A stretch of 64,000 nt of DNA, from positions 32,001-96,000 of the IMG/VR virus record IMGVR_UViG_3300012007_000009; one strand, 5' to 3'. Source of the DNA: a virus (taxonomy: Duplodnaviria; Caudoviricetes). Of this stretch, positions 3,850 through 42,520 are shown piece after piece (position 1 is the stretch's first letter; each line of letters begins with the position of its first letter). Position numbers and translations under genes: made by a program. Under the pieces are notes generated by a model, which worked only from the letters and a program-made list of their open reading frames with translations, did not search any database and was not told where the DNA came from.

Positions 3850-5096
3850 CAGTAAGTACCCTCCAGTGACTTCAAGTTGGTGTATGCCAGGAACCTGATG
3901 TCGACGGGGTTCGACGGCATGTATGCTATGACTTCAATTTCATCCAGCTTCCCGGCCTGCTTCACGTGGTTGACTACATCGAGGAATTTTTCCATCTGGT
4001 AATCATTTATGTTACCGTCGCCGTAGAATACGATACTTACCGCATCCATGCTTGGCTTGCCACGCATATCGGACCCAAGGGTCGCATCGAACGTGATGTC
4101 GGCGCACTGGACGAAACCTCGGTTGGTTGCCTTGGACTTGTCTTCCAGTGTCGCCAGTACATCGGGGTCGCCATCGGCTACACCGATGAGATAATGTGCG
4201 CAGTTCTTGGCACTGTCATCGGTGTAGTTTGACAATATTTCGGCCAACGGGGTTGTCAACCCGGTCGCCGACAGTATAATGCGCTTGTTTACCTTTGCAC
4301 TGCGCGACTTGGCTGCCGGTGATTCCATGAACGGGATTTCGTAAGTGCTGGACCTACCGACTATCTCCTTACGCTGCTGGCCATCAATTTCGGCATCCTT
4401 GGTTCCTTCTACCGCCGTTCCCGTAGAGCCACCGTTACCGCGCAACGTGTCGATGGTGGACCTGGAAATATGCGGCACCCGGAGATATTCCGAGCCGGAA
4501 CGCAGGGCGTTCTCGGCACTTCCCACCGGCTTGCACGTAAATATGTCTATCGTGGCTTCAGTCAGTACCGACACCGGAGCTATACCGGCCTCGTCGGACG
4601 CATTGGCCGAGTTCAGTACAACTTCCCCGGCGGCATTCCAGGAAATCTCTGAATTGTTGCCGGGGTTCCTGGTAGTCGATATGTGTGAGCGCCGATTGTG
4701 CGTATACAGGTACCCGGTTTCGCCCATGTTAAACACGGCAACATCCGGATATTCCCCGACATATTCTTCGGGCAAAAAGTTCTTGGTTGCCGATAGTCCA
4801 AAATACATACCCTGGTTGATATCGCCATCAATGAACTTGACCAGCAGCCAATGTCCCTTCTGCGGGACCTGCTGCATGCCGGTAGTCAATTCCGGGGCAA
4901 ACCAGGGCTGCATTTTATCCGGCCATTTATCGGTTACTCCACTGACCCGAGCCTGTACATGGCCGGCCCTATTCGGGTCAACCGACGTTCCCACAACTTG
5001 CGCATAGTAGCGGGGGGAAGTCAGCGGCCCCGGCTTCTTGTACACAATAGAATAGGCAGTTTCCCATGGAAACTTGAAATCGGGAGACGATATCAT
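3849..5096 (-). CDS. gp5/VgrG-like baseplate spike (N-terminal OB fold) with a C-terminal Amidase_2/PGRP-like domain
   Basis: YYAQVV...DPNRAGHVQARV.G...PW..P...VPQKGHWLLVKFIDGDINQGMYFG is the gp5 OB-fold signature. C-terminus has RIILSATG...CAHYLIG...VQ...SIVFYG...YQM. Confidence 0.75.
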   Translation of the reverse strand: MISSPDFKFPWETAYSIVYKKPGPLTSPRYYAQVVGTSVDPNRAGHVQARVSGVTDKWPDKMQPWFAPELTTGMQQVPQKGHWLLVKFIDGDINQGMYFGLSATKNFLPEEYVGEYPDVAVFNMGETGYLYTHNRRSHISTTRNPGNNSEISWNAAGEVVLNSANASDEAGIAPVSVLTEATIDIFTCKPVGSAENALRSGSEYLRVPHISRSTIDTLRGNGGSTGTAVEGTKDAEIDGQQRKEIVGRSSTYEIPFMESPAAKSRSAKVNKRIILSATGLTTPLAEILSNYTDDSAKNCAHYLIGVADGDPDVLATLEDKSKATNRGFVQCADITFDATLGSDMRGKPSMDAVSIVFYGDGNINDYQMEKFLDVVNHVKQAGKLDEIEVIAYMPSNPVDIRFLAYTNLKSLEGTY

Positions 5097-30437: not shown

Positions 30438-31373
30438 CTATTTTGCACTGAATTGCTCCAATGCCCGAGCGATTACTTCCTTACCCGCCGAAACAGCTTC
30501 TGGATGAGACTTGGTAATCGACAAAATATCACCATACATTTCATCAAACGATAGGCCAAGTTCATCGTACTTTTCACCCAATCCGTCGCTCATCCACTTA
30601 GCAAATGACGGACTTCTGGTATCTAGCAAACCAACTGCCGCATATTCAGCATCACTTAATTCATGACCAGAATCAGCTTCATCAATGATACGTTCGATTA
30701 CAGCAGTCAACTTTCCTGAATTATTTGATGCATTGAACATGGACTCCAGCTTGGGCTTCACCTTGCCGTCGCCCGGTTCGCCAATGTGCTTGGAAATCTG
30801 GTCGAACTTCTTGAGAACCTTCTCGGCATCGGCCTTGCTCTTCTCGTCAATCCCGAGGCTCTTCACGAAATCACGGAACATGTCAATCTTGCGCTGACGC
30901 TTGCTTTCCTCGGAAAACTTCTTGTTGGAGTCAGCCTTGGAACGCTGGGCGGAAGCGGTGGACTTGGCCTTGGAGTCGAAGCTCCCGGTCTTGGCCTTGG
31001 GTTCCCCCTTGGCTTCGTGGGTCGTATCCTCGGTAACCAGCTTGGTGACCTTCTTGTCTTCCTTCTTCTCGGTAACCACGTCGTTCTCGGTCACCTGTTC
31101 CTTGGAAGCCTTGGTTTCCACCACGGCGCCCTTGGCGGCCTTGGCGCCCTTGCTCAGGTCCGGGTTGACGGCGGTCTTGGCCTTGCCGACCTTCTTGGAG
31201 TCGGCCGTCCAGGTACTGAGGTCGACCATCTTCCCCTCGAACATTGCGGTAGATTCCACGATGGGCCTGGGGTTACTGGTCTCGTTGTACGGACGCTGCT
31301 GTTCGATGGGCTGGTTGGCTATGCTCTCGAACAGGGAGAGCATCTTATCTTCGTCGTCGAGGGAGTATGCCAT
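30438..31373 (-). CDS. Lys-rich hypothetical protein (candidate head internal protein) with an AT-rich C-terminal module
   Basis: LFES, IVES, MFEG, KLES motifs; codon usage shifts abruptly near 30740; upstream ATAAACT at 31412-18. Confidence 0.6.
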   Translation of the reverse strand: MAYSLDDEDKMLSLFESIANQPIEQQRPYNETSNPRPIVESTAMFEGKMVDLSTWTADSKKVGKAKTAVNPDLSKGAKAAKGAVVETKASKEQVTENDVVTEKKEDKKVTKLVTEDTTHEAKGEPKAKTGSFDSKAKSTASAQRSKADSNKKFSEESKRQRKIDMFRDFVKSLGIDEKSKADAEKVLKKFDQISKHIGEPGDGKVKPKLESMFNASNNSGKLTAVIERIIDEADSGHELSDAEYAAVGLLDTRSPSFAKWMSDGLGEKYDELGLSFDEMYGDILSITKSHPEAVSAGKEVIARALEQFSAK

Positions 31374-32107
31374 GGCAGATACCTTCTTTGTAAAATTGCA
31401 ATTTGTCCGAAAGTTTATATACGTGGCAAAAAAAAAAAATCAAATGCCCGGCATAAACTACAGGGCGAGGAACTAGATTATGGACCTGAATATCCCCAAA
31501 TCATCCACGGTAAGCCACGAGCTACCCATTTTCAACGAACTTAGCCAGGATTCCGGCCTGCCTGTAAGCGAAGTGAAGGCCAGGTTCAGGAACAAGATGC
31601 TCGAATTGCACCAGAAGTCCCTTGATGACCCGTCCAGCCTGCCGCTCGGCACGGATTCCCAGGAAATGGCGCATACCGCGGTCAACGAGCTGCGTACGGA
31701 ACTGGAACACCCCGAGGAAAAGCTGGATGACCAGGATGAATACGACCAGATTATGGGATTCGACCCGACCCAGCCGGCCCCGGGTTCCGATATTTTCGGC
31801 GCCGATGACTTCGGGGGTGGTGATTTCGGGGGTGGCGACAGTTTTGGTGGCGGTGACTTCGGCGGTGGTGGATTCGGTGGAGGCATCGACAACCTCGACA
31901 TGGGATTCTCGGACGAGGGCATGGACGCTGTCAACTCGGTCGCCGACGATGGATTCGACGATTTCGGCTTCGAGGACGATGCAGGGTTGTCAACAGCTAA
32001 CCTAAAATCTACCTAAATTTACTAAGTTTTACCGAAATTTGCAAGTATTTCATTGCATTTTAGGTTGAAGCTCGGTATAAAATTTTGTATATTGTTATAA
32101 ACTTGAT

Positions 32108-32223
32108 GTATAGAGGTTCAGTGAATTAGTGGCTTTCTTCATTGAACGACACTGAGAGACCATTTATGATGGCTCGTTTGATGCTGAAAGCCACAAAAAG
32201 TATCGAACGAGCCATTTCTGTAT
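32108..32223 (+). ncRNA. Predicted structured RNA: three-way junction with a 9-bp kissing-loop pseudoknot, upstream of tnpB
   Basis: Stem 32116-25/32138-47 (10 bp); stem 32169-85/32199-215 (17 bp); loops GTGGCTTTC and GAAAGCCAC are exact complements; all non-WC pairs are G-U on the plus strand. Confidence 0.7.
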
Positions 32224-32225
32224 CT

Positions 32226-33965
32226 ATGAGCAAGCACTGTTGGGCATTGAAGGATAAGTACGAGTCGCAGTTCTCCGCTGCGTTCTATCCTATTCTATTG
32301 TCCGACACCAAGCGAGCTGAAATCATTCATCGAGCAGAGGAAATCCGTTCCGTAAGAAATGACATATCGGAGATATTCTTCTCGGATATGCTCGGCTTTC
32401 AGGACATGACAAAGTTTGAAGCGTTAAACTTCTTCAATCCTACATTCACGACCAGACTGTCCAGTCATTACTTGAAGAAGGCTATAGAGGATGTATGGAG
32501 AGCCTATCAGCTCCGGTTCGATGCTATTCGCAAGAATATTGAGTTCGTCAAGGTTGAAAAACTCGTTCCATTGTTCTACAAGATAAATAGTCACGGACAT
32601 AAGAAAGGTGACTTAAAATCTATAGAGTGCCATACCAAGAAGACTGAACTCACAAAGGTACTGACTTGGCTTGCACGATACGGAAAGGACGAAACTGTCT
32701 ATTGGCTCGAATCCGTGATTCCTACCACACAGGAATCAAAGCAGAAGTTCTACCGCGCCATCTTGGAGAAGATTAGGAAGTTCGGCTTTGAACGCCTCAT
32801 GAGATTGGCTCTATCTAGGAGAATCACTGTATTTGCCGAATACGAGACGCGTGGAAAGATTACATTTGAATCGCTTACCTTCAGTGGCCGTAGCCGTATC
32901 AAGCGTCCTATCGTGGATGCTCGTAGGAACGAGACTGGTAAGTTCGATTACTTCATCGAGATTTCATGGGACTGGTATGACCAAGGTTATCATGGCGACA
33001 GCAAGAACACGCTGTGCATGCCGTTCAAGTATAATAGAAAGTATCACCGTTCTTTGAATAGGTACTGCAACGGAACAGACACTTCCTATACGATAGTAGT
33101 ACGAGGAAAGGACATCCATGTAGTTCTCGCGAGGGACGGTTACCGCTACAAGAATACCGATGAGATAACCGAAGATAATACCGTCGGTATAGATGTTAAT
33201 TCCAAGCACAACATGTTCGCCTTGAGCAGCGGAGAGTTCATACCTAACGACGATGCCTTGATTGCCGACCTAGAAACCGAGCTGCTCAAGATAGACCAGA
33301 AGCAGAAGAACTACAATGCCCGGTTTGCCAAGGACGAGGAACATGATGCATTCAAGATTTCCAAGAAGGACAAGGCTCGCGTCGAAGCGATAACCTTGAA
33401 ATTGAACGAGTCCAACAAAAGAACGATTGTACTGCTCTGCCAAGCCTTTGCTGCCAAGGGAATCAAGCACATCGCAATGGAGAACCTCGACGGTTTCAAA
33501 GGAAGCAAACTTCATTCCGAGGACAGTAAAGGATTTAATCTAGGTAGATTGCATCTGCGGACTGGACTTTCCTCCCTGAAGGATGAGTTCATCCATATTG
33601 CACCCAAGTACGGCTTGCTAGTATCGCTTGTGCAAGCCGAATACACATCGAAGATGTGTGGTCACTGCGGTTGTATTGATGACCGCAATAGGCAAACACA
33701 AGAAGAATTTTGCTGTGTGGAATGCAGTCATTCCGAGAATGCCGATATACACAGCTCGAAGAACATTAAATTTCGCCTTACCTCGACCGTGTTAAGAGAG
33801 AACCTGCTCGTAAGAGCGGGGGATAGCGAATACAGGTACTTCATTCCGAAGGGACTCCTTCCTAGGTGGAAGGTGAAGAAGTTCTTGGAAAAATGTCGTT
33901 GCGATGGCTTGTTCAAGCAAGCTATAGAAAATCAGCAATTATCTACCACTGATAGATTTTGTTAG
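32226..33965 (+). CDS. tnpB: Long TnpB/Cas12f-like RNA-guided RuvC nuclease (~579 aa)
   Basis: VGIDVN (RuvC-I), IAMENL (RuvC-II), YTSKMCGHCG...CVEC zinc ribbon, NADIHSSKNI (RuvC-III). Start placed after the RNA structure; the frame is open from 32142. Confidence 0.88.
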   Translation: MSKHCWALKDKYESQFSAAFYPILLSDTKRAEIIHRAEEIRSVRNDISEIFFSDMLGFQDMTKFEALNFFNPTFTTRLSSHYLKKAIEDVWRAYQLRFDAIRKNIEFVKVEKLVPLFYKINSHGHKKGDLKSIECHTKKTELTKVLTWLARYGKDETVYWLESVIPTTQESKQKFYRAILEKIRKFGFERLMRLALSRRITVFAEYETRGKITFESLTFSGRSRIKRPIVDARRNETGKFDYFIEISWDWYDQGYHGDSKNTLCMPFKYNRKYHRSLNRYCNGTDTSYTIVVRGKDIHVVLARDGYRYKNTDEITEDNTVGIDVNSKHNMFALSSGEFIPNDDALIADLETELLKIDQKQKNYNARFAKDEEHDAFKISKKDKARVEAITLKLNESNKRTIVLLCQAFAAKGIKHIAMENLDGFKGSKLHSEDSKGFNLGRLHLRTGLSSLKDEFIHIAPKYGLLVSLVQAEYTSKMCGHCGCIDDRNRQTQEEFCCVECSHSENADIHSSKNIKFRLTSTVLRENLLVRAGDSEYRYFIPKGLLPRWKVKKFLEKCRCDGLFKQAIENQQLSTTDRFC

Positions 33966-34080
33966 ATTTTTGCCAACGGTCAGTTAACGCGATGTCCGAC
34001 ATCGAACCTTCCGGGGATTCCGGGGAAACAGAAGAGCCCTCCTCGGATGAGGGCGGCTCGGACGACCTGAACCTCAATAT

Positions 34081-35214
34081 CTAGGCCTTCTCGCCGAAAT
34101 ACATGCACTTCCGGGCGAACTTCTTGTCCTGGAATGTAAGGAAAAGGCGGCCGTCGTCGGAATGCAGCATCTCAAGCACGGCGGAACCGGCATTCCTCAC
34201 CATCATGGTACTGACGTCCATCGGCAAGTCGATGGACTTTTTCGTATCCATCATCCTGACACCGGTCATGGTAATTGTTCCTGAATACCTGTCCTCGAAG
34301 CCGTACTTCATCTCGACGGTCTTCTCGTCCAGGGGAACCAGTTTCACCGGGGCAATCGGGTCCTTGTAGTTGAGGCCATACACCATGTCGATTGTCGCCA
34401 TCATGCCGATGGTGTCGAACTTCATGTACGGGGACATGCCTTCGCTGCTGCCTGTACGGAGCTTGCCTTCACCATAGGCGTAGTTGATTCCGTAAAGTTT
34501 CCCTTGTGTACGAATGCGCTTCCTCGACCAGTCGAGGTCGAACGAGCACAGGGGGTCCGTGCTGACTGTAGGCATAATCTTGAACACGTTCACCGGGACG
34601 GATATCGCGAAGTCCGGTACGTCCTTCATCGATTCCACACCTAATACCTTGATAGTAAACGGGAGGGTCGCGATGCTGACCCGGTCGTTCCCGGTCCTGA
34701 ACGACAGAGTCCCCTCGTTGCACGCAAACTCGACTGTATCGAACTCGTAGCAAGTGTCGATGATTGAAGCCATCACCATTTGTTCGACCTGAATGGTGAG
34801 GTCAGGGGAAAATCCCTCATCCATTTCGAACGGTTCCAACAAAGGAAGGCTGGCTTCGGATTCAAAGCATTCCAGGCCCTCGTTGTAGGAGGAACCGATG
34901 TACAGCCTGCCGTCAGCAACCCACAGGGCAACCAGGCCGTCCTTCACTCCCTTGTCGCAGGTGACGAAGAAGTCACTCAGTCTCACATACGCATCGCTGT
35001 CCAGGCATTCCGATTTCAGTGTAGTGTCGACCAGTGCAGTAACTCCCTTGTCGGTAGTGAGCTTCATGTAAACAAGGTCGTCCTCGTCGTGATTGACAAA
35101 CGTCTCGATGTGAACCTTGCTCTCGTCGGACTCACACGAGAATCCGATAAATGAAATTGCTTCACGGAAACCAGTCACCGTGTTGAACATAGTAAGCTTT
35201 GGCGTATTTGGCAT
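34081..35214 (-). CDS. Hypothetical protein, possibly a divergent beta-clamp (DnaN)-fold protein
   Basis: 377 aa with a three-fold repeating alpha/beta pattern, e.g. 'TLSFRTGNDRVSI...FAISVPVNVF'. Confidence 0.4.
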   Translation of the reverse strand: MPNTPKLTMFNTVTGFREAISFIGFSCESDESKVHIETFVNHDEDDLVYMKLTTDKGVTALVDTTLKSECLDSDAYVRLSDFFVTCDKGVKDGLVALWVADGRLYIGSSYNEGLECFESEASLPLLEPFEMDEGFSPDLTIQVEQMVMASIIDTCYEFDTVEFACNEGTLSFRTGNDRVSIATLPFTIKVLGVESMKDVPDFAISVPVNVFKIMPTVSTDPLCSFDLDWSRKRIRTQGKLYGINYAYGEGKLRTGSSEGMSPYMKFDTIGMMATIDMVYGLNYKDPIAPVKLVPLDEKTVEMKYGFEDRYSGTITMTGVRMMDTKKSIDLPMDVSTMMVRNAGSAVLEMLHSDDGRLFLTFQDKKFARKCMYFGEKA

Positions 35215-35245
35215 AGATACCTCTTTTCATGACGAAAACTACATC

Positions 35246-35274
35246 AAAAAGGGGCGCCCGTTGCCGGACGCCCC
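35246..35274 (-). terminator. Rho-independent terminator
   Basis: GGGGCGTCCG-GCAA-CGGGCGCCCC-TTTTT on the minus strand. Confidence 0.8.
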
Positions 35275-35294
35275 CAATGGCATGCAGGAATTCG

Positions 35295-36815
35295 TTAGAA
35301 GATGTTGTCGAGCGAAGCCACCGCCAGGTCCGTCTTGTCCTGTCCGGACTCTTCCGAGTTGCTCCCGTCCTCCGACATGTCGATTCCGGCATCGGTATTC
35401 CCGTTGCCGAACATGTCGTTCGCTGTATCCATCATGTCGCCCATTTCGCCACCGTTGCCGAAACTGTTCAGGTCGACGGTAGAATCGGGGGACATGCCGC
35501 CACCCATTCCGAAGTCGTCCTGCGGGAACGTCATCGCGGCGGTTTCCTTGGCCACGTCGTGCATGGCAGTACCGTCAGTGTTGTAGACTTCCGGGAACCA
35601 CTTGCCGAGGTCGGTCTTGAACTTGGTTACATCCACCTTTCCACCCTCGAGAGCCTTGGCGAACTGCTTCAGTCCTTCCTTAGGGAGGGCAGTATCCAGG
35701 GCCTTGTAGTCATCGAATGAAAGGAATTGTTCCAGAATCTCGTCGGCAGTCATGTTCTTGACTCCCGGGAAGCCCTCGTACCACTCGCTGGCTGAAGGCT
35801 TGACACCGCCGGACTGCTTGTCGCTCACATAATTGACTGCATCAGCCACTATTTGCGCCATGTTGTCCCAGGCTGCCTGGGAAAGGCCGGAACCAATTTC
35901 AGGGTCCCCGTTGAGCACGAACTCCCTGAATTCAATCTTGTCTGCACCGTCTCCATTGCCGTCGGTCACACCATTGACTTCACCGGCTGACTGGGGAGCT
36001 TCGGTACCGTCGCCGAATCCGCCACCCATGTCGCCACCGGCATCACCGCCTGCAGGGGCGGCAAAGTCATCGGCGCCGAAATCGCCACCGGCATCACCGC
36101 CTGCAGCATCCATGTCCTCATCTGCTTCGAACATGGCCACCGTGTCGTTACATACGTCGAGGAGCTTCTGCAGCTTCCAGTCGACAGACTCGTATGCAGT
36201 GATGTTGTTGGTGTCGGAATTCGCGAGCGCGAGGGAATCGTTGAAGTTGTCCTGCGGGGTATTGACCGCGCCTACGCCGTAGAGCATGTCGTCCAGCGGG
36301 GGCTGCGTTTCCTGGAGAATGAGGTTCCTGGCGCTCTCGCGGATTGACTGGGCGAAGTTACCCTTGAACTGGTCGGAATCGAGCGGGACCTCGTACAGCA
36401 TGGACCTGCCGGTGTCGAGGGAAAGCTCTACGCTAATCTTGCCATGGGTGTTCGGGAACTTCAAGTTGAGGGTGACCGGGGTGCCGTCGCACCTGAACGA
36501 GCCGTTCATGGAAGTCTGGTCCATGTCCATCCCGGAAAGATTCAGCCTCATGGGGGAATAGGACGTGGTGGATGTGGCCTCGGTCATCAGCTTTACGCCG
36601 ATATCCTTCAGGGACAGGTAGTTCTTGTCCATCAGGAGGCTGCCGTTCTCGTAAGTGCGATGGTCGAACTTCTCCTTGGTCTGGTCGCCGACCGGGCCGA
36701 GGGTACCCTTCATCATCTTGACGGTTGTCGTGCGGGCCGGCACGACCGGGCCGCTCTGGGTCTTCGTATATTCGAAGGCCTTGCTAAAATCTTTCAAAGA
36801 AACGCCTTTGCTCAC
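35295..36815 (-). CDS. Acidic low-complexity protein (candidate head internal protein)
   Basis: GTG start after ATAAACT (36848-54); AGGDAGGD duplicated; LMTEA/AYES/MFEA motifs. Confidence 0.6.
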   Translation of the reverse strand: MSKGVSLKDFSKAFEYTKTQSGPVVPARTTTVKMMKGTLGPVGDQTKEKFDHRTYENGSLLMDKNYLSLKDIGVKLMTEATSTTSYSPMRLNLSGMDMDQTSMNGSFRCDGTPVTLNLKFPNTHGKISVELSLDTGRSMLYEVPLDSDQFKGNFAQSIRESARNLILQETQPPLDDMLYGVGAVNTPQDNFNDSLALANSDTNNITAYESVDWKLQKLLDVCNDTVAMFEADEDMDAAGGDAGGDFGADDFAAPAGGDAGGDMGGGFGDGTEAPQSAGEVNGVTDGNGDGADKIEFREFVLNGDPEIGSGLSQAAWDNMAQIVADAVNYVSDKQSGGVKPSASEWYEGFPGVKNMTADEILEQFLSFDDYKALDTALPKEGLKQFAKALEGGKVDVTKFKTDLGKWFPEVYNTDGTAMHDVAKETAAMTFPQDDFGMGGGMSPDSTVDLNSFGNGGEMGDMMDTANDMFGNGNTDAGIDMSEDGSNSEESGQDKTDLAVASLDNIF

Positions 36816-36869
36816 GGGAACCTCGCAGTTTTCGCGAATTTCCCGTAAGTTTATATAATGGCGACTACT

Positions 36870-37757
36870 CTATTCGACCAAGCTTTCGTGGTTAATCTCG
36901 CCACCGTCGCTTTCCATGCCGGCGACATACAGATTAATCGGGTCGTTCGGGTCAGCCCCGGGAATGGCGGAAAACGCCTTCAGGGTTATCTTGTCCCTCT
37001 TCTCTGACTTGAAATGGCGGACCTCGACCTCGTAGTCGGTATCGATTCCCTTCAGGATATTGAAATACAGTGCAGGAATCTTGCGGAACTTGTCGTGGGA
37101 ACTGGCATATGCCGCGTCAATCTGCGCTGCGGCCCCCATGCGGGTGCAGTTCCTGGGAATGACGTTGGTAATCTGCTGCCCGGTACGGCCCTTCATGTAG
37201 ATGCTCACCTTGCTATGGGTAAGGACCACGGAAACGAACTGGCAACCGGGAACCATCTTGAGCTCGTCGCACATCGTCTTCAGCTCGGCCTTGTCCAGCA
37301 CTATAGTGGACAGGCAGTTCATCGGGTCCTTGTCCCTCTCGCACGGGACGTGCCTGGATTTCTGGTCGAACCGGGTGGGGTCGGCGCATATGGCACGACC
37401 TACCTTGGTCGCAGTATCGGGAGTTCCGTTCATGAACCTGACCATAGGGTATACGTGTCCGTTCGTCAGGGTCTCGTCGAGGACGCTCACGTTGGACGCC
37501 GGATTCCCGGGAAACCCGACCAGCTCGCAGAACCGGATGAACTCCATCAGCGAGGCGACGCATACCTCGTTCCCCTCGAAGTTGAGGTCGTGCGGCCCGG
37601 CCGATATATGGAGGAATGTCGCCGTGGTAGGTACCGTAATCCTGCACCTCCCGTTACCCTTGAACATCACCGTAGCCTTCGACTTGCTCACCATCGTGAG
37701 CTTCTTCAGCAACACGAAGAACTGCGGACTCATTGTAATCACTTGCGGATTTTCCAT
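36870..37757 (-). CDS. Sliding clamp (gp45-like)
   Basis: N-terminus ITMSPQFFVLLKKL..VS...VMFKG...VCVASLMEFIRF parallels gp45 (MKLS..TL.ILKNF..IN...IYDL..FL). Confidence 0.65.
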   Translation of the reverse strand: MENPQVITMSPQFFVLLKKLTMVSKSKATVMFKGNGRCRITVPTTATFLHISAGPHDLNFEGNEVCVASLMEFIRFCELVGFPGNPASNVSVLDETLTNGHVYPMVRFMNGTPDTATKVGRAICADPTRFDQKSRHVPCERDKDPMNCLSTIVLDKAELKTMCDELKMVPGCQFVSVVLTHSKVSIYMKGRTGQQITNVIPRNCTRMGAAAQIDAAYASSHDKFRKIPALYFNILKGIDTDYEVEVRHFKSEKRDKITLKAFSAIPGADPNDPINLYVAGMESDGGEINHESLVE

Positions 37758-37760
37758 ACT

Positions 37761-39791
37761 CTAGCCTTGCCTGATTTTATCCAGGCTCCTCTCCATAAAT
37801 GTAGCAATTCTGTCAATGCCCAGGTTCATCTCGGGTGTCTTGGGACGCACCATGTACTCCATTGCTCCCCAGCATTCCACGGGAATCTGCATCATCGGTA
37901 TGGCGAACTTCCTGCATATCGCCGACATTACCGGCCCAAGAAGCCCCCTCTGGTCGCCGAGCTGCTGGAAGAAGTCGATGTACTCCAGCTCGTTCAGGTA
38001 GATTCCCCGTATTGCGACGAATGGACCGTCCATCACTTCGACCGGGTGGAACCCGGTTGACGCGGTAATCCCGGTAACGCGGAGCTGCTGCTCCCGGGAA
38101 ACCCCGCCGTACCACCCGTATGCCCCGTAGGATACCGGACACTTGTCCCATGAGCCGTCCGGGAGTATATGCCCGTACCCGAACGGGGCGACGGCGCCCA
38201 CGTTGAACGGCACCGAACCCAGGGTATTGTGGAACATGGGGTCGGTAATCATGGTGGTGGCCGGGGCGATGACTATCCAGGAAGGCTTTGTCCGTACGTC
38301 CGCCGTCCGCAGCATGCCCAGGGCGTTCTTTATGGCGCGGGCGAATGAAGGCGGTATCACCCTGCGTCCGAGCTTCTTCCCGCATGACACGCGGAACAGG
38401 CACTCGTCCTTGGCGTTGGGGTACGACTCGTATATGCCGGGAGTTCCCCGGGACGAGTGAATCACGAAAGTCACAATCTGGGGTTCCTCGGAGAACCTGA
38501 GTATGTCGTTCCGGTTCGGCCTGGTCTTCCGTACGGGAGACCCTGTCGTGAGTATATTGCGTATCGCGTCCAGCCTGGCCGACTCCTCCATGCGCTTGCG
38601 CATAATCTCCAGGTGCTTCTGCTTGCGCTCTTCCTTGCCCTGCTGGAAAGACGCGGCGATTGCGGCCTCCATCTGCTCGACCGGGTTCGCGAACTGCACC
38701 GGGGACATGGCCAGCTGGTATGTGCTGTTTGCCTTGCGCTTCCTCCTGGCCATGGACTGTTTCTTGCGGACCCTCACCTCGACTCCGGACGCGACCACCT
38801 TCTCGACATCCTCCTTGAGCCAGCCCCTGGGGGCATTCTTCGTATATCCTTTCGCGGGCACGACCACGTCGCCATGCAGCACCCTGCGGCATCTCCCGAC
38901 TATGAACTCGTCAATCCACCGTTCACTCTTCAGGAACTTGTACCGTATCGCGCGCCGGTTGTAGTACGGGAGTCCCTCGCAGTAGTATTTCCGTAGCTCC
39001 CGGAACTCAATCAGCTTTTCCAGGTCCTCCCTCCGGTAGCACCACTTGGATGCCCCGGTACCTACCGGGTTTTCCGCGTATTTCAGCATGCCCATCTGCT
39101 TCAGGTTGTCGAAGCATGCGTCGGTGACACCCATGTATACCCTTGCCAGTTTCGGGGGAAGGAAGTCCGGGAGCGGCGTTTTCCTGAACCTGTGGGATTC
39201 CCCCCTCTCGTGCAGGTACCTGAGAATCTCCGCCTTGCTGTACTTGAACGGGCATCTGGGCTTGTGCGGTTCTATCCGTATCTTCTCTTTCCTCGTCAGC
39301 CTCTTCAGCGTGATTACCTTGATGCCGATTAGCATCGCTGCGAAAGAACGCTTCAGCGGATTCACTATGAACGAACACAGGTATTCCGGGTCATACTCCC
39401 GCCTGAACCGTTCCAGGTCCTTCCTGTACAGGACGCGGTAGCCTGTGCGCGACGACACGCTCAGCCTTATGTATCCGAGCTTTACGTATTTCTGCCATGT
39501 CTTGGGCGTCATCCCGAGTTCTAGCATGGCCTCCGCCTGGGAAAACTCGTGCAACGGGTGCAGGTCGTCCGGGGGATATACCCGGTACTTGGATATCGCG
39601 TCCATCACCTCGGCATGCCGGTACTCCTTGGTGTTTCCCGGCGTGTACCTGTACGGAATCTCATCCAGGATTCCGGTGTGCTTCAGCCTCTCGACCGGCA
39701 TGTTGAGGTACTTGGCTACCCATGAGGCGGTAACGAACTCCGGCGGACCGTTCTTCCTGTTCCTGTATGCGACCCTCAGTATATTCGGCAT
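37761..39791 (-). CDS. Five tandem MerR/Xis-type winged-HTH repeats fused to a degenerate GT-A-like domain
   Basis: Repeats such as FSQAEAMLELGMTPKTW...G.I...YRKDLERF; C-terminal SFARAIKNAL...VGAVAPFG...VEVMDGPFVAIRG. Confidence 0.6.
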   Translation of the reverse strand: MPNILRVAYRNRKNGPPEFVTASWVAKYLNMPVERLKHTGILDEIPYRYTPGNTKEYRHAEVMDAISKYRVYPPDDLHPLHEFSQAEAMLELGMTPKTWQKYVKLGYIRLSVSSRTGYRVLYRKDLERFRREYDPEYLCSFIVNPLKRSFAAMLIGIKVITLKRLTRKEKIRIEPHKPRCPFKYSKAEILRYLHERGESHRFRKTPLPDFLPPKLARVYMGVTDACFDNLKQMGMLKYAENPVGTGASKWCYRREDLEKLIEFRELRKYYCEGLPYYNRRAIRYKFLKSERWIDEFIVGRCRRVLHGDVVVPAKGYTKNAPRGWLKEDVEKVVASGVEVRVRKKQSMARRKRKANSTYQLAMSPVQFANPVEQMEAAIAASFQQGKEERKQKHLEIMRKRMEESARLDAIRNILTTGSPVRKTRPNRNDILRFSEEPQIVTFVIHSSRGTPGIYESYPNAKDECLFRVSCGKKLGRRVIPPSFARAIKNALGMLRTADVRTKPSWIVIAPATTMITDPMFHNTLGSVPFNVGAVAPFGYGHILPDGSWDKCPVSYGAYGWYGGVSREQQLRVTGITASTGFHPVEVMDGPFVAIRGIYLNELEYIDFFQQLGDQRGLLGPVMSAICRKFAIPMMQIPVECWGAMEYMVRPKTPEMNLGIDRIATFMERSLDKIRQG

Positions 39792-40954
39792 CAGAAGAAG
39801 ACCTCCGCCTTGTGGAAGGACTGCTTCTTCTCCTTGTACGCCCTGATTCCCTCGAACCGCTTACGGGCGGCTTCCTTCTTCATGTTCCCGTACTTCAGCG
39901 CGAACAGTATGCCGGCCGCCTCCGGGTTGCGGACCCTGGCCTCTATTGCGTCACGACGGGCAAACCCCTCCTCGTCGACGGGAAGCTCCCCGGTCATTAC
40001 GGCACCGTTGATGTCCTTGCTCTTCAGGCCCTCCCAGGTAAACCACTTGAAACCGAGTTCGCATGTCCTGGCCCTCGCCTCCTGGCCCTTCTCGTCGTTG
40101 TCCCATATCACGACGACCTTGTCCTTGTTCTCCTTCAGCCGTGGATTGTCATTGAACACCGAATCAAAGTGCGGAATTCCGCCTATGGCAATGGCATTGT
40201 GGATAAATGTTGAATCTATCGTACCTTCCAGGATGTATATGGGCTCGTCGTAGTTGATGAAGTCTATGTTGTACGCGCCGCGCTTCACGCCTGCAAAGTT
40301 CAGGTAGCGGAGCGGGTTGCCCTGGTCTATCGCCCTCGCGTCGAACTGTCCCCACTTGCCACCGAAATGGTAGAACGGTATTATAATCCTGTTCTTGTAA
40401 CGGTTTCCGAGAGGCCTCCCGTGCTCGTCCAGCATGACGTTCCCGTTGGCGTCCCGGTCGAGGAACTGGTCACCCTCCTGGCACACGAACCACTCGGAGT
40501 AGACCTCCTCCCGTATCCTCCGGGAACGGCACAGGTTCAGCCCCGCGATTGCAAGCGGATGACCGGACATTATCGGGACGAGTTCGCCTTCCTTGAACGG
40601 GAGGGCCGATTCGAGGGGCCGCTGCTCGGCCTGCAGGGTAGTCTCCTTGTCCCTGCGGCCGCGCTGCGCCCCGAAAGCGCTGAACAGCAATCTCTGGTAG
40701 GCGTTCTCGTCGTGTGTGCGGAGCCACTTGGCGTATGGCATCATGGGGGTGCACTTGTAGCAGACGTACTGCCATGTATCGGTATAGATGTACGCCTTCT
40801 TCTTGTTCGGGCGGTTTATGTCGCCGCATTCCGGGTTCGGACAGACGAAGTTGTAGTACCCGGCATGCGAGTCATCCAGGGCAAACCCGGAGAACTGCTC
40901 GTGTATCGAGTCGTCGTAGACTGCGGCCGGTATGTCGTCGTATGATATTGCCAT
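39791..40954 (-). CDS. DNA primase (gp61-like)
   Basis: Zn finger CPNPECGD...CYKC; RIIIPF; TOPRIM ILEGTIDS and WDND. Confidence 0.92.
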   Translation of the reverse strand: MAISYDDIPAAVYDDSIHEQFSGFALDDSHAGYYNFVCPNPECGDINRPNKKKAYIYTDTWQYVCYKCTPMMPYAKWLRTHDENAYQRLLFSAFGAQRGRRDKETTLQAEQRPLESALPFKEGELVPIMSGHPLAIAGLNLCRSRRIREEVYSEWFVCQEGDQFLDRDANGNVMLDEHGRPLGNRYKNRIIIPFYHFGGKWGQFDARAIDQGNPLRYLNFAGVKRGAYNIDFINYDEPIYILEGTIDSTFIHNAIAIGGIPHFDSVFNDNPRLKENKDKVVVIWDNDEKGQEARARTCELGFKWFTWEGLKSKDINGAVMTGELPVDEEGFARRDAIEARVRNPEAAGILFALKYGNMKKEAARKRFEGIRAYKEKKQSFHKAEVFF

Positions 40955-40963
40955 TCTGATAAG

Positions 40964-41011
40964 AAATATAGTAAAAAAGAAAAGGACTGGATAGCATCTC
41001 CAGTCCTTTTT
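40964..41011 (-). terminator. Terminator after the SSB gene, fused to the next promoter motif (TACTATATTT, 40964-73)
   Basis: AAAAGGACTGGA/TCCAGTCCTTTT 12-bp stem; its T-run leads into ACTATATTT. Confidence 0.75.
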
Positions 41012-41041
41012 GCTACTGATTTGCTAAAAAGTTAGCCTAGG

Positions 41042-42520
41042 CTAAAATGGCAAATCGTCATCGCTGTCCGTCTCGACAATCGGGGCAGGGCCAGCCTGCG
41101 GAGGCATCATCTGAGCCGGCTGTGCCAGGGGAGGCGCAGCGGGCGGAACATATGCCTGCTGTTGCGGTGCTACCGGGGCAGCGGGGGCTGCAGGAGCGGG
41201 CGCTACCGGGGCTGCCTGGGGCATTCCGAACTGAGGAGCGGGGGCTGCCTGGGGGAATGCGGGGGCTGCGGGAGCGGGGGCTGCGGGAGCAGGAGCGAAT
41301 GCCGGGTTAGGGGCAAACGCTGGCGTCACGGGAGCTGCGGCTGCAGGGATAGGAGCCGGCATCTGCACGTTAGGTACAGCCGGAGCCATCTGCTGTTGCT
41401 GGCCCATGAACGCTGCAGGGTTGGTGTTGCTGGTAATCTTGGCGTTGGCAGGCACCTGCGGGATGCTGTTCTGAGTACCGGGCTGCATGCCCATGGGCAT
41501 CTGTGCACCGGTCTGGAACGGCTGCGCGGCATATGCCGGGGCAACGGCGGCCGGAGCCACGCCCATCTGCTGGGCACCAGCACCATATCCGGTCTGGTAG
41601 CCGGAAGCGGCCTTCTGGCGGGACAGGGCGTTGGCCTCATCCCAGAACTTCTGCAGCATGGCGATAGCTTCCTGCGGTGTCGGAATGTCCTGCATCACGA
41701 AACTGAGGTCATGACACTGGTCAAGAATCGCATAGATGGATTCGGTATCGATGACCGAAGTGGCCACGTTTGTAGCGGGGTCGACTACGGTCTTGGTGAA
41801 CAGAGGGCTCGGGTTCTTGGCGAAGGCGCTTCCCTTGTAGGTAGGAGCACCCTTCCTGCCGGTACCGAACGACTTCTCTGCATCCCACACGCCGTTGAGC
41901 ACGTAGTCATATCCGTTGGTCGGGTCATAGGGCACGAATGCGTCACCTGTATCAACGTTGACATCGTCAGTAATGCCTTGTGCAGCCTTGGTAAGCTTCT
42001 CGTTGTACTTGTCCACGGGTTCCTGGAAGGCAGCGTGCTGGTACTTGGAGTGGGGCCACACCTTGACCTGGTTGTTATACTCTGGGTGGTTTGTATCCTG
42101 ACGGATGAGGAAGTTACCGTACCATTCTTCCTCGGGAAGCTGCTGGAGGTATCTCTTCAAGCTATCCTTGGTTGCGCCCGGCTGCTCCTTGGCTGCGCGG
42201 TAGCGTGCCCACACGTCCTCGCAGAACGGGCAGTTGCGTTCGCCCGGAATGTTCTTGCAGCACTTGACCGTCAGGGTCTTGCCGCTGTTCACGTCGCGCA
42301 AGCGGTGAATCATCACGCTCACGTAGGGATAGGCATTGAGGTTCCTCCCGTTGGGGAGGGCACGTACGACCGCCTTGTAGGTGGTGTTGTTCTTCGTCAC
42401 CTTCGGACGCCAGATTCGCGGGTCCGTATTCACCCCGCCCTGTGCAGTGGCCTGCGGGGCAGGAGCCGGCGCGGACACCATGAGCATACCACCATTGGGT
42501 ACTTGTTGCATGTTTTCCAT
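41042..42520 (-). CDS. ssDNA-binding protein (gp32-like) with a long Pro/Ala/Gln linker and DDDLPF tail
   Basis: DPRIWRP, AVVRALP, CPFCE, N.LI..D...PE.N..VKVW, PYDP..G.D, PTY..S.F. Confidence 0.88.
   Translation of the reverse strand: MENMQQVPNGGMLMVSAPAPAPQATAQGGVNTDPRIWRPKVTKNNTTYKAVVRALPNGRNLNAYPYVSVMIHRLRDVNSGKTLTVKCCKNIPGERNCPFCEDVWARYRAAKEQPGATKDSLKRYLQQLPEEEWYGNFLIRQDTNHPEYNNQVKVWPHSKYQHAAFQEPVDKYNEKLTKAAQGITDDVNVDTGDAFVPYDPTNGYDYVLNGVWDAEKSFGTGRKGAPTYKGSAFAKNPSPLFTKTVVDPATNVATSVIDTESIYAILDQCHDLSFVMQDIPTPQEAIAMLQKFWDEANALSRQKAASGYQTGYGAGAQQMGVAPAAVAPAYAAQPFQTGAQMPMGMQPGTQNSIPQVPANAKITSNTNPAAFMGQQQQMAPAVPNVQMPAPIPAAAAPVTPAFAPNPAFAPAPAAPAPAAPAFPQAAPAPQFGMPQAAPVAPAPAAPAAPVAPQQQAYVPPAAPPLAQPAQMMPPQAGPAPIVETDSDDDLPF

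What the first reader, a model, noticed from the sequence alone, without database searches (positions are those of the whole stretch)
31981..34084. tnpA-less IS607-like element splits a phage gene at GG; predicted TAM and guide imply homing
Seen: deleting 31987-33979 restores ...GAT GCA GGG TCA GTT AAC GCG... and a 203-aa acidic protein ending LNLNI*. GG occurs at both junctions with no TSD, ~10-bp repeats lie at both ends, and there is no room for a recombinase gene. The nuclease (~579 aa, versus roughly 400 for typical TnpB) keeps all three RuvC acidic residues. Known: IS607 serine recombinases cross over at GG, and TnpB uses right-flank sequence as guide next to a left-flank TAM. Inference: TAM about (C)AGGG and guide TCAGTTAACGCGATGTCC, which would cut the empty allele in co-infecting relatives. 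TnpA would have to act in trans.
Basis: partly seen in the sequence, partly recalled or inferred. Interest (0 to 1): 0.75.

Follow-up and report, generated by a model that had tools for sequence, protein, structure and literature searches.

The report
Transposase-less IS607 TnpB element in phage
A 2-kb selfish DNA element that has lost its transposase but keeps an intact RNA-guided nuclease (TnpB) and its guide RNA sits inside a gene of a large ruminant-gut phage, and related phages in nature carry exactly the uninterrupted site that its guide would cut.

Summary
Window 31987-33979 (1993 bp; the boundary can slide within a shared GGT) is a low-GC insertion. It splits a 203-aa acidic phage gene, leaves no target duplication, and has GG at both junctions.

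Contigs from a metagenome collection and from three bovine and goat gut runs carry the flanks joined exactly as predicted, GCAGGG|TCAGTTAACGCGATGTCCGA.

The element encodes only a 579-aa TnpB (start 32226) with an intact RuvC D-E-D triad and Zn finger. Its last ~210 nt form an 11-helix RNA structure with strong covariation that ends at the right end; this is the candidate omegaRNA.

Two relatives with 86-87% identical TnpB carry a MerR-HTH + resolvase TnpA between the same kind of ends. The IS607 assignment and the "tnpA-less derivative" reading therefore hold.

Ten unique left flanks from loci, plus one contig loose end, all end in GGG. Every right end but one has C at -3, the self/non-self arrangement shown experimentally for the C. 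botulinum IS607 TnpB.

No group I intron was detected, and one copy breaks a tRNA gene in antisense. Cleavage, homing and trans-mobilisation remain inferred.

The scan noted this family before on another phage genome (e1-5709406, e1-5709408). I rate it a new variant of a known kind, of moderate interest.

The parts
31480..31986 (+). 5' part (169 codons) of the interrupted acidic, Gly/Asp/Phe-rich phage gene. As it stands it runs into the element and stops after 9 foreign codons at 32016.
   Evidence: Relatives L002-L006 and L022 have the gene uninterrupted. No Pfam or PHROG family matched.
31984..31986 (+). GGG at the left junction: the candidate TAM (NGGG), which contains the GG crossover core.
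   Evidence: GGG ends all 10 unique left flanks from loci, plus one more seen as a contig loose end. This parallels the 5'-TGGG TAM and target of CboIStron TnpB/TnpA.
31987..32066 (+). Left end: terminal TTGTCAAC plus phased ~10-bp AAAWYTAC-like repeats. These are candidate binding sites for the serine transposase.
   Evidence: The autonomous relative L009 has a similar left end. In the C. botulinum element 40 bp of left end suffices for excision.
32096..32103 (+). TATAAACT motif, a candidate phage-type promoter for tnpB.
   Evidence: The window has 7 copies against 0.75 expected, including sites about 35-40 nt upstream of the phage genes starting at 31373(-) and 36815(-). The motif is invariant in 8 aligned elements. 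Function is inferred.
32116..32215 (+). Structured 5' leader: two hairpins whose loops pair with each other over 9 bp (kissing loops), ending 10 nt before the tnpB start.
   Evidence: Of 280 cells, 96.4% are paired. Ten of 35 pairs show compensatory changes, 0 of 500 shuffles match, and slid controls give 31-43%. The leader is present only in the tnpA-less form.
32226..33965 (+). tnpB, 579 aa: an RNA-guided RuvC nuclease with an enlarged REC lobe.
   Evidence: Pfam PF07282 4e-11; NCBIfam guided_TnpB 2e-21. Catalytic D323/E419/D507 and the CxxC...CxxC motif are invariant. The AF2 model has pLDDT 89. Fold matches are Cas-lambda, Cas12f and TnpB at Z 15-21.
33772..33979 (+). Candidate omegaRNA scaffold. 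It overlaps the last ~64 codons of tnpB and the right end. The terminal GCCAACGG pairs with CCGTTGC about 75 nt upstream.
   Evidence: 60 pairs in 11 helices, 98.3% paired, 16 pairs with compensatory changes, 0 of 500 shuffles, slid controls 35-46%. Expression was not testable.
33950..33979 (+). Right end: two TAGATTTT repeats (inverted relative to the left end), terminal CAAC, then GG. The C at -3 (ACGG) differs from the GGG of the target.
   Evidence: Fourteen of the 15 distinct right ends read ACGG or CCGG; L013 reads ACGA.
33980..33999 (+). Predicted guide, which is also the target in the empty allele (TCAGTTAACGCGATGTCCGA).
   Evidence: These 20 nt lie directly after GCAGGG in the empty allele L022. 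The length and use as a guide are inferred from TnpB systems.
33980..34084 (+). 3' part (34 codons plus stop) of the interrupted phage gene.

Best explanation
This is a non-autonomous IS607-family insertion sequence of a lineage that appears to live mainly in large (about 200-450 kb) ruminant-gut phages.

Shown:
- A 1993-bp element is inserted at a GGG|T site without duplication.
- It carries an intact 579-aa TnpB and a conserved, covarying RNA structure that ends exactly at the right end.
- Close relatives carry a MerR-HTH/serine-recombinase TnpA between similar ends.
- The same element family sits at many different GGG|T sites.
- Natural relatives of this phage carry the exact uninterrupted site.

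Inferred:
- tnpB is transcribed from a phage-type promoter through a kissing-loop leader.
- The 3' ~210 nt of the transcript plus about 20 nt of right flank become the omegaRNA.
- TnpB-omegaRNA cuts DNA that has NGGG followed by TCAGTTAACGCGATGTCC..., which is the empty allele. That allele arises after excision or is brought in by a co-infecting relative.
- Recombinational repair from an occupied genome copies the element back in (homing).
- The occupied allele is spared because the right end reads ACGG, not GGG.
- Moves to new sites need a serine TnpA supplied in trans by an autonomous relative in the same or a co-infecting phage, or in the host.
For: - Insertion and frame restoration. GC drop.
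- Empty allele: L022 is collinear at 92% (left) and 95% (right) with the junction GCAGGG|TCAGTTAACGCGATGTCCGA. Contigs of three runs from two studies skip exactly 1993 bp with a 3-nt ambiguity.
- More distant relatives L002-L006 have an uninterrupted gene that reads ..DDGG|SVNAMS...
- TnpB: family hits, invariant D-E-D and Zn cysteines, fold. More than 400 intact homologues, mostly 578-579 aa.
- omegaRNA covariation.
- IS607 assignment: L009 and L010 have tnpA (Resolvase 1e-22, MerR 2e-13) upstream of an 86-87% identical tnpB. L009 junctions are GGATGGG|TTATCAAC... and ...CAGTACGG|T.
- Target motif: 10 unique loci plus 1 contig loose end all have GGG at the left, and right ends have C at -3. 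This matches the published CboIStron logic of TGGG TAM, scaffold ending UCGG and G(-3) discrimination.
- Mobility: similar elements sit at different sites. One run's 28.9-kb contig has the empty site and also a copy about 0.6 kb away in the other orientation.
- TnpA sources: IS607-type TnpAs occur elsewhere in phage genomes that carry tnpA-less copies, for example G008.
Against: - No RNA data exist, so transcription, omegaRNA ends and processing are unproven.
- No TnpA is in the 160-kb record, which is only 44% complete.
- One fully complete phage with a tnpA-less copy (G005) has no TnpA at all, so trans-mobilisation may be rare.
- This particular insertion was seen only in the window's own lineage. 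All other relatives found are empty, so there is no population evidence that it has homed.
- The TnpB scores far below the NCBIfam IS607_TnpB cut-off (16 vs 350 bits), and no RAGATH-18 guide RNA was found. It is therefore not a typical IS607 TnpB.
Confidence: 0.8

Rival explanations
1. IStron-like element: the RNA splices itself out of the host-gene transcript (group I intron fused to an IS607), so the phage gene stays functional.
For: IS607-family IStrons with the same GG/TGGG logic exist. Here the element lies in the sense orientation inside a gene, and several other copies may too. The leader is highly structured.
Against: Rfam finds no group I intron or any other family at E <= 10 in 31800-34200. 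The left non-coding part is only 239 nt and is taken up by end repeats, a promoter-like motif and two hairpins. In L014 the element interrupts a tRNA-Gly gene in antisense, and in L019 it sits in what looks like a terminator-type hairpin followed by a T run. Splicing is therefore not a general requirement.
Confidence: 0.05
2. Inert relic: a dead, immobile insertion whose TnpB no longer acts and is simply inherited vertically.
For: There is no TnpA in cis or in the held record. This insertion is private to one lineage. Some copies look degenerate: L008 lacks the left end and L013 has a right end reading CAACGA.
Against: The ORF is intact here and in hundreds of homologues at 70-93% identity. 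Catalytic and Zn residues are invariant. Compensatory changes keep the omegaRNA and leader helices intact. The family sits at many different sites and is polymorphic between near-identical phages.
Confidence: 0.08
3. A weapon rather than a homing device: the main benefit is to the phage. The guide directs cleavage of co-infecting competitor phages that carry the empty allele, causing interference competition without efficient copying of the element.
For: The empty allele with a perfect 20-nt match exists in related phages 92-98% identical in the flanks. The element carries a motif shared with the phage's own genes. Homing endonucleases are reported to act this way in jumbo phages (review PMC13565253).
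Against: Any one guide only hits relatives that lack that one insertion. Flank identity of 92-98% is ample for recombinational repair, so copying should accompany cutting. Nothing in the data separates this from homing.
Confidence: 0.07

Closest known systems
IS607-family element of Clostridium botulinum (CboIStron) with TnpA(S), TnpB and omegaRNA (Zedaveinyte et al., bioRxiv 10.1101/2023.11.20.567912)
   Same: GG core at both junctions, scarless empty site, and a target/TAM ending in GGG. The scaffold ends in CGG, so C at -3 protects the occupied allele. The guide is read from the right flank, and the serine TnpA has a MerR-like HTH in autonomous relatives.
   Different: No group I intron was detected and this copy has no tnpA. 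TnpB is 579 aa. The 5' leader is a kissing-loop RNA, there is a phage-type promoter motif, and the lineage is carried by phages rather than a bacterial chromosome. Position -4 of the flank is not conserved (N rather than T).
IS607 TnpB with RAGATH-18-derived reRNA (ISFba1 TnpB, PDB 8iaz; Cell Res 2024, PMC11061315)
   Same: An IS607-associated RuvC/Zn-finger RNA-guided nuclease with a G-rich TAM next to the left end. The fold match is Z 15.2 over 356 residues.
   Different: Those proteins are 330-433 aa and their guide RNA lies wholly downstream of the ORF. Here the protein is 579 aa, the scaffold overlaps the last ~64 codons, Rfam finds no RAGATH-18, and the NCBIfam IS607_TnpB score is 16 against a cut-off of 350.
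Cas-lambda (Cas12l) of huge phages (PDB 8dc2, 9izr)
   Same: It is the best structural match of the whole model: Z 20.8 with 465-483 aligned residues, against Z 16 and about 375 residues for Cas12f and Z 15 for TnpB. Both are phage-borne.
   Different: There is no CRISPR array. The guide comes from a transposon end, and the protein is about 170 aa shorter. Sequence profiles place it nearer Cas12f/TnpB (3e-27) than Cas-lambda (2e-9, RuvC part only). Kinship was not tested by phylogeny.
TnpB-only (tnpA-less) derivatives of IS200/IS605 and IS607 elements, and free-standing homing endonucleases of T4-like phages
   Same: A non-autonomous nuclease-only element that can persist by cutting the empty allele and being copied by recombination (concept in PMC13565253).
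   Different: Target recognition is RNA-guided and is reset by each transposition. The ends keep recombinase sites, so transposition in trans remains possible.

Membership tests
IS607 family insertion sequence | Encodes a serine-recombinase TnpA with an N-terminal MerR-like HTH | tested here: not met
   This copy has no room for one (239-nt leader plus 1740-nt ORF), and there is no Resolvase hit in the 160-kb record. The feature is met in close relatives L009 and L010: MerR 2e-13 and Resolvase 1e-22, directly upstream of an 86-87% identical tnpB. This copy is therefore filed as a non-autonomous derivative.
IS607 family insertion sequence | GG core dinucleotide at both junctions, no target-site duplication, scarless empty site | tested here: met
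   GG(T) is shared by both junctions here and in every related copy with recognisable ends except L013, whose right end reads CAACGA. The empty alleles retain a single GG.
IS607 family insertion sequence | Sub-terminal repeated motifs at both ends that could bind multiple TnpA dimers | tested here: met
   There are phased ~10-bp repeats in the left end and inverted copies in the right end, conserved across copies. Binding itself is not testable here.
IS607 TnpB (NCBIfam NF038280) / RAGATH-18 reRNA type | Scores above the curated IS607_TnpB cut-off and is followed by a RAGATH-18 RNA | tested here: not met
   16.2 bits against a cut-off of 350. No Rfam match at E <= 10. This is a different TnpB clade riding on an IS607-type transposon.
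TnpB / OMEGA RNA-guided nuclease | RuvC D-E-D triad and CxxC...CxxC zinc ribbon in a WED-REC-RuvC-TNB fold | tested here: met
   D323, E419, D507 and C478/481/497/500 are invariant in 50 relatives. PF07282 scores above its cut-off. The fold matches TnpB at Z 15 and Cas12f at Z 16.
TnpB / OMEGA RNA-guided nuclease | Structured guide-RNA scaffold at the 3' end that abuts the transposon right end | tested here: met
   11 helices, 98.3% paired, 16 compensatory pairs, 0 of 500 shuffles. Whether the RNA is made could not be tested, because no RNA runs were available.
TnpB / OMEGA RNA-guided nuclease | TAM-dependent, guide-dependent DNA cleavage | not testable with these tools
   Only indirect evidence: GGG is conserved in 11 left flanks and there is C at -3 in the right ends.
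IStron (IS element fused to a group I intron) | Group I intron ribozyme core in the left end; splicing restores the host transcript | tested here: inconclusive
   No Rfam hit. The left end is short. There is an antisense insertion in a tRNA gene. No RNA data were available to test splicing directly.
Cas-lambda / Cas12l (type V CRISPR effector) | Effector gene adjacent to a CRISPR array that supplies the guides | tested here: not met
   The 1993-bp element and its flanks hold no repeat array. Only the fold resemblance holds (Z 20.8).

The most novel reading that the evidence does not exclude
In these jumbo phages the lineage has shifted from a transposon to an RNA-guided homing-endonuclease lifestyle. 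It has lost TnpA and gained a phage promoter and a kissing-loop leader that gates TnpB. It now spreads mainly between co-infecting phages by cutting empty alleles, the way T4 homing endonucleases do but with a guide that resets at each new site. The same phage-restricted, large-REC TnpB clade may also be the stock from which phage Cas-lambda arose.
Probability: 0.3. Interest if true: 0.75.

Novelty: new variant of a known kind. Interest (0 to 1): 0.52.

Why it matters
It gives a natural pair for testing TnpB homing: an occupied allele and an exact empty allele in closely related wild phages. Co-infection and recombination are routine in phages, so the predicted homing of TnpB elements could be tested there without any transposase.

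It also defines a large TnpB clade whose nearest protein-atlas clusters are mostly viral. The clade has about 550-600 aa, an intact nuclease, a mapped guide scaffold and a simple NGGG flank motif. Its fold is closest to phage Cas-lambda, which is of interest for the origin of phage type V effectors and as a compact editor candidate.

Tried and rejected
- An exact search for the 32-nt joined site in IMG/VR contigs found nothing. The 24-nt search of metagenome contigs found L022.
- No RNA holder was listed among public runs, so expression, omegaRNA ends and splicing could not be examined.
- All laid runs were contigs. X1, probably the source sample, gave no contig that bridges the right junction and none with the empty form.
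- Rfam with permissive thresholds gave no match on 31800-34200.
- No Y1 transposase is in the record. An IS200/IS605-type mechanism was considered because the junctions could also be read as target GGGT / end CGGT. It was rejected because the autonomous relatives encode a serine recombinase.
- The search for related loci with alignment A1 on genome contigs failed because no stretch was conserved enough. The distribution in bacterial genomes is therefore untested.
- Folding the N-terminal 310 residues alone from a shallow alignment gave pLDDT 57. It was not used for a domain-level comparison with Cas-lambda.
- The sigma-70 and terminator scan was near chance level.
- The orientation of copies relative to host ORFs was inspected, but the sample was too small and the ORF calls too uncertain to claim a bias.
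- PHROGs and Pfam gave no function for the interrupted gene or its neighbours.
Full report
**Setting**

The window is bases 32001-96000 of a 160,790-bp IMG/VR virus record that CheckV rates 44% complete, so the phage is probably a jumbo phage. The public runs that hold the stretch are bovine, goat and other animal gut metagenomes. The finding lies beside a 996-aa family-B DNA polymerase gene, among genes with no known family.

- The + strand ORF 31480-32016 reads a Gly/Asp/Phe-rich acidic protein for 169 codons. After GGG (31984-31986) it runs into foreign, AT-richer sequence and stops nine codons later.
- Removing 31987-33979 (1993 bp) joins it in frame to 33980-34084. The result is 203 aa ending LNLNI*.
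- GC is 0.37-0.47 inside and 0.53-0.59 outside.
- The two junctions share GGT and nothing is duplicated.

**The empty site exists in nature**

- Five IMG/VR relatives of the gene (65-75% identity) are uninterrupted. They read ..EDDGG|SVNAMSDIEP.. across the point where the window reads ..EDDAG|SVNAMSDIEP...
- A 24-nt search for the reconstructed junction found metagenome contig L022. It is collinear with window 31212-31987 (92%) and 33978-41284 (95%). It carries GCAGGG followed by 20 nt identical to the window's right flank.
- Independently, contigs of two bovine-gut runs (one study) and one goat-gut run (another study) join 31984 to 33978, skipping exactly 1993 bp with a 3-nt ambiguity.

**What the element encodes**

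- The only gene is a TnpB-type nuclease. Homologues (more than 400 at E <= 1e-3 among the 8000 candidates scored, most of them 578-579 aa) and more distant representatives all begin at the Met encoded at 32226.
- Pfam finds the Cas12f1-like TNB zinc ribbon. NCBIfam finds guided_TnpB at 2e-21, below its cut-off.
- In an alignment of 50 relatives at 24-58% identity, D323, E419, D507 and four cysteines are invariant.
- The AlphaFold model is confident (pLDDT 89). It matches Cas12/TnpB structures along its whole length.
- The extra ~170 residues over a 400-aa TnpB lie mainly in two helical REC segments (about residues 27-105 and 141-209) and a C-terminal helical tail.

**The guide RNA**

- The last 280 nt of 15 elements align with an unusually invariant block inside the coding region. 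They fold into 11 helices, from about 33772 to the last base of the element.
- Of the cells, 98.3% pair and 16 of 60 pairs show compensatory changes. No shuffle out of 500 reaches this, and sliding the partners drops pairing to 35-46%.
- The terminal GCCAACGG pairs with CCGTTGC about 75 nt upstream, and the most divergent copy (L017) changes both sides together.
- This is the position and form expected of an omegaRNA scaffold, with the guide read from the right flank. Expression could not be checked because no RNA runs were available.

**Why IS607**

- Fifteen related elements were recovered from other phage contigs.
- Thirteen of the 15 loci show only tnpB; two of them (L016, L021) are cut at the contig edge, so their upstream region was not seen.
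- L009 and L010 carry a 213-aa protein with a MerR HTH and a resolvase catalytic domain in front of an 86-87% identical tnpB. That is the IS607 TnpA architecture.
- The L009 element is bounded by GGATGGG|TTATCAAC... and ...CAGTACGG|T.
- The tnpA-less form keeps the ends. The left end has terminal TTRYCAAC plus four to five phased ~10-bp repeats. The right end has two inverted copies plus CAAC-GG.
- No resolvase or Y1 transposase is in the held record.
- Other phage genomes that hold tnpA-less copies do hold IS607-type TnpAs elsewhere, for example G008, which is 99% complete. One complete genome (G005) holds none.

**Target and TAM**

- Ten distinct left flanks in loci, plus one more seen as a contig loose end, all end in GGG, with no preference at -4. 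All distinct right flanks start with T.
- Fourteen of 15 right ends read (A/C)CGG; L013 reads ACGA.
- This mirrors the experimentally defined C. botulinum IS607 system. There, TnpA integrates at TGGG with a strict GG, TnpB needs a TGGG TAM with G(-3) most discriminated, and the scaffold ends UCGG so the occupied allele is not cut.
Its guide start is consistent with the data.

**Not an intron, as far as can be told**

- Rfam finds nothing at E <= 10.
- The 239-nt left non-coding part is filled by end repeats, a promoter-like motif and two hairpins.
- In L014 the element splits a tRNA-Gly(TCC) gene in antisense. Aragorn finds the tRNA only in the joined flanks.
- In L019 the element sits in what looks like a terminator-type hairpin followed by a T run.

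**Mobility**

- Near-identical left ends sit in different flanks, as in L007 and L019.
- One 28.9-kb bovine contig carries the empty site together with a copy about 0.6 kb to the left in the other orientation.
- The family has therefore transposed within this phage lineage. The insertion studied here was seen only in the window's own lineage.

**Comparison with known systems**

- It works like the IS607 TnpA(S)/TnpB/omegaRNA systems described in 2023-2024.
- It differs in several ways. It has lost tnpA. Its TnpB is about 50% larger and fails the IS607_TnpB model. Its scaffold overlaps the ORF. It has no RAGATH-18 motif. It has a covarying kissing-loop leader and a motif shared with phage genes. 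Its nearest protein-atlas clusters are mostly viral.
- That phages often carry TnpB is already reported (PMC12607003). Homing of tnpA-less elements has been proposed in principle (PMC13565253).
- The scan had already noted this family on another phage genome (e1-5709406, e1-5709408).

**Verdict**

I class it as a new variant of a known kind. Interest is moderate, because the mechanism is the expected one. It is raised somewhat by the natural occupied/empty allele pair, the well-defined RNA parts and the Cas-lambda-like fold.

Noticed in passing
window 32116-32215: The 5' leader of tnpB forms two hairpins whose 9-nt loops are complementary. The loop-loop helix is 100% paired in 8 elements, with 4 of its 9 pairs changed on both sides. 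The leader is present only in the tnpA-less form and ends 10 nt before the start codon. It may be a translational gate or a processing signal.
   Followed up: partly
window 10446, 11003, 31412, 32096, 36848, 59321, 61803: TATAAACT occurs 7 times against 0.75 expected. Two copies lie about 35-40 nt upstream of the phage genes starting at 31373(-) and 36815(-), and one lies inside the element 123 nt before tnpB. The autonomous relative L009 also has TTATAAACTT before its first ORF. The element seems to use a phage-type promoter.
   Followed up: partly
model of window 32226-33962: The best structural match is phage Cas-lambda/Cas12l (8dc2, 9izr; Z 20.8 with 465-483 residues aligned). This is about 4.5 Z units above Cas12f and TnpB, although sequence profiles are closer to Cas12f. 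It may be an evolutionary link between phage TnpB and Cas-lambda.
   Followed up: partly
L014:2763-4751: A copy of the element interrupts a phage tRNA-Gly(TCC) gene in its T arm, antisense to the tRNA. Aragorn finds the tRNA only after the element is removed.
   Followed up: yes
L019:2832-4823: A copy lies at the 3' edge of what looks like a terminator-type hairpin (GCCCGCC-ATTC-GGCGGG followed by a T run).
   Followed up: no
run X2, contig record 9 (28.9 kb), laid on window 31300-34600: A close relative of this phage has the acidic gene uninterrupted. It carries a copy of the element about 0.6 kb left of window 31300 in the opposite orientation, which would place it in or near the homologue of the 311-aa gene 30438-31373(-).
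   Followed up: no
right flank position +1 in all loci (window 33980): The first base after the right end is T in every distinct insertion, as is the first base of the left end. The shared junction sequence is therefore GGT, not only GG. This could be a TnpA half-site preference or a constraint on the first guide base.
   Followed up: no
L036 (G010:30546-34151) and L034 (G008:147294-150929): The same phage genomes hold other IS607-type TnpAs, 61% identical to that of L009. One is followed by a 450-aa ORF whose N-terminus looks TnpB-like and the other by an ORF of about 495 aa with no family checked. These are possible trans sources of transposase.
   Followed up: partly
L008:2256-3015 and L013:2700-2860, 4725-4754: These look like degenerate copies. 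L008 lacks the left-end repeats. L013 has a 21-bp duplication at its left end, and its right end reads CAACGA instead of CAACGG.
   Followed up: no
L015 and L016 (IMGVR_UViG_2061766007_004163): Two copies of the element lie about 3.6 kb apart in the same orientation on one 55-kb contig, which IMG/VR classes as a provirus.
   Followed up: no
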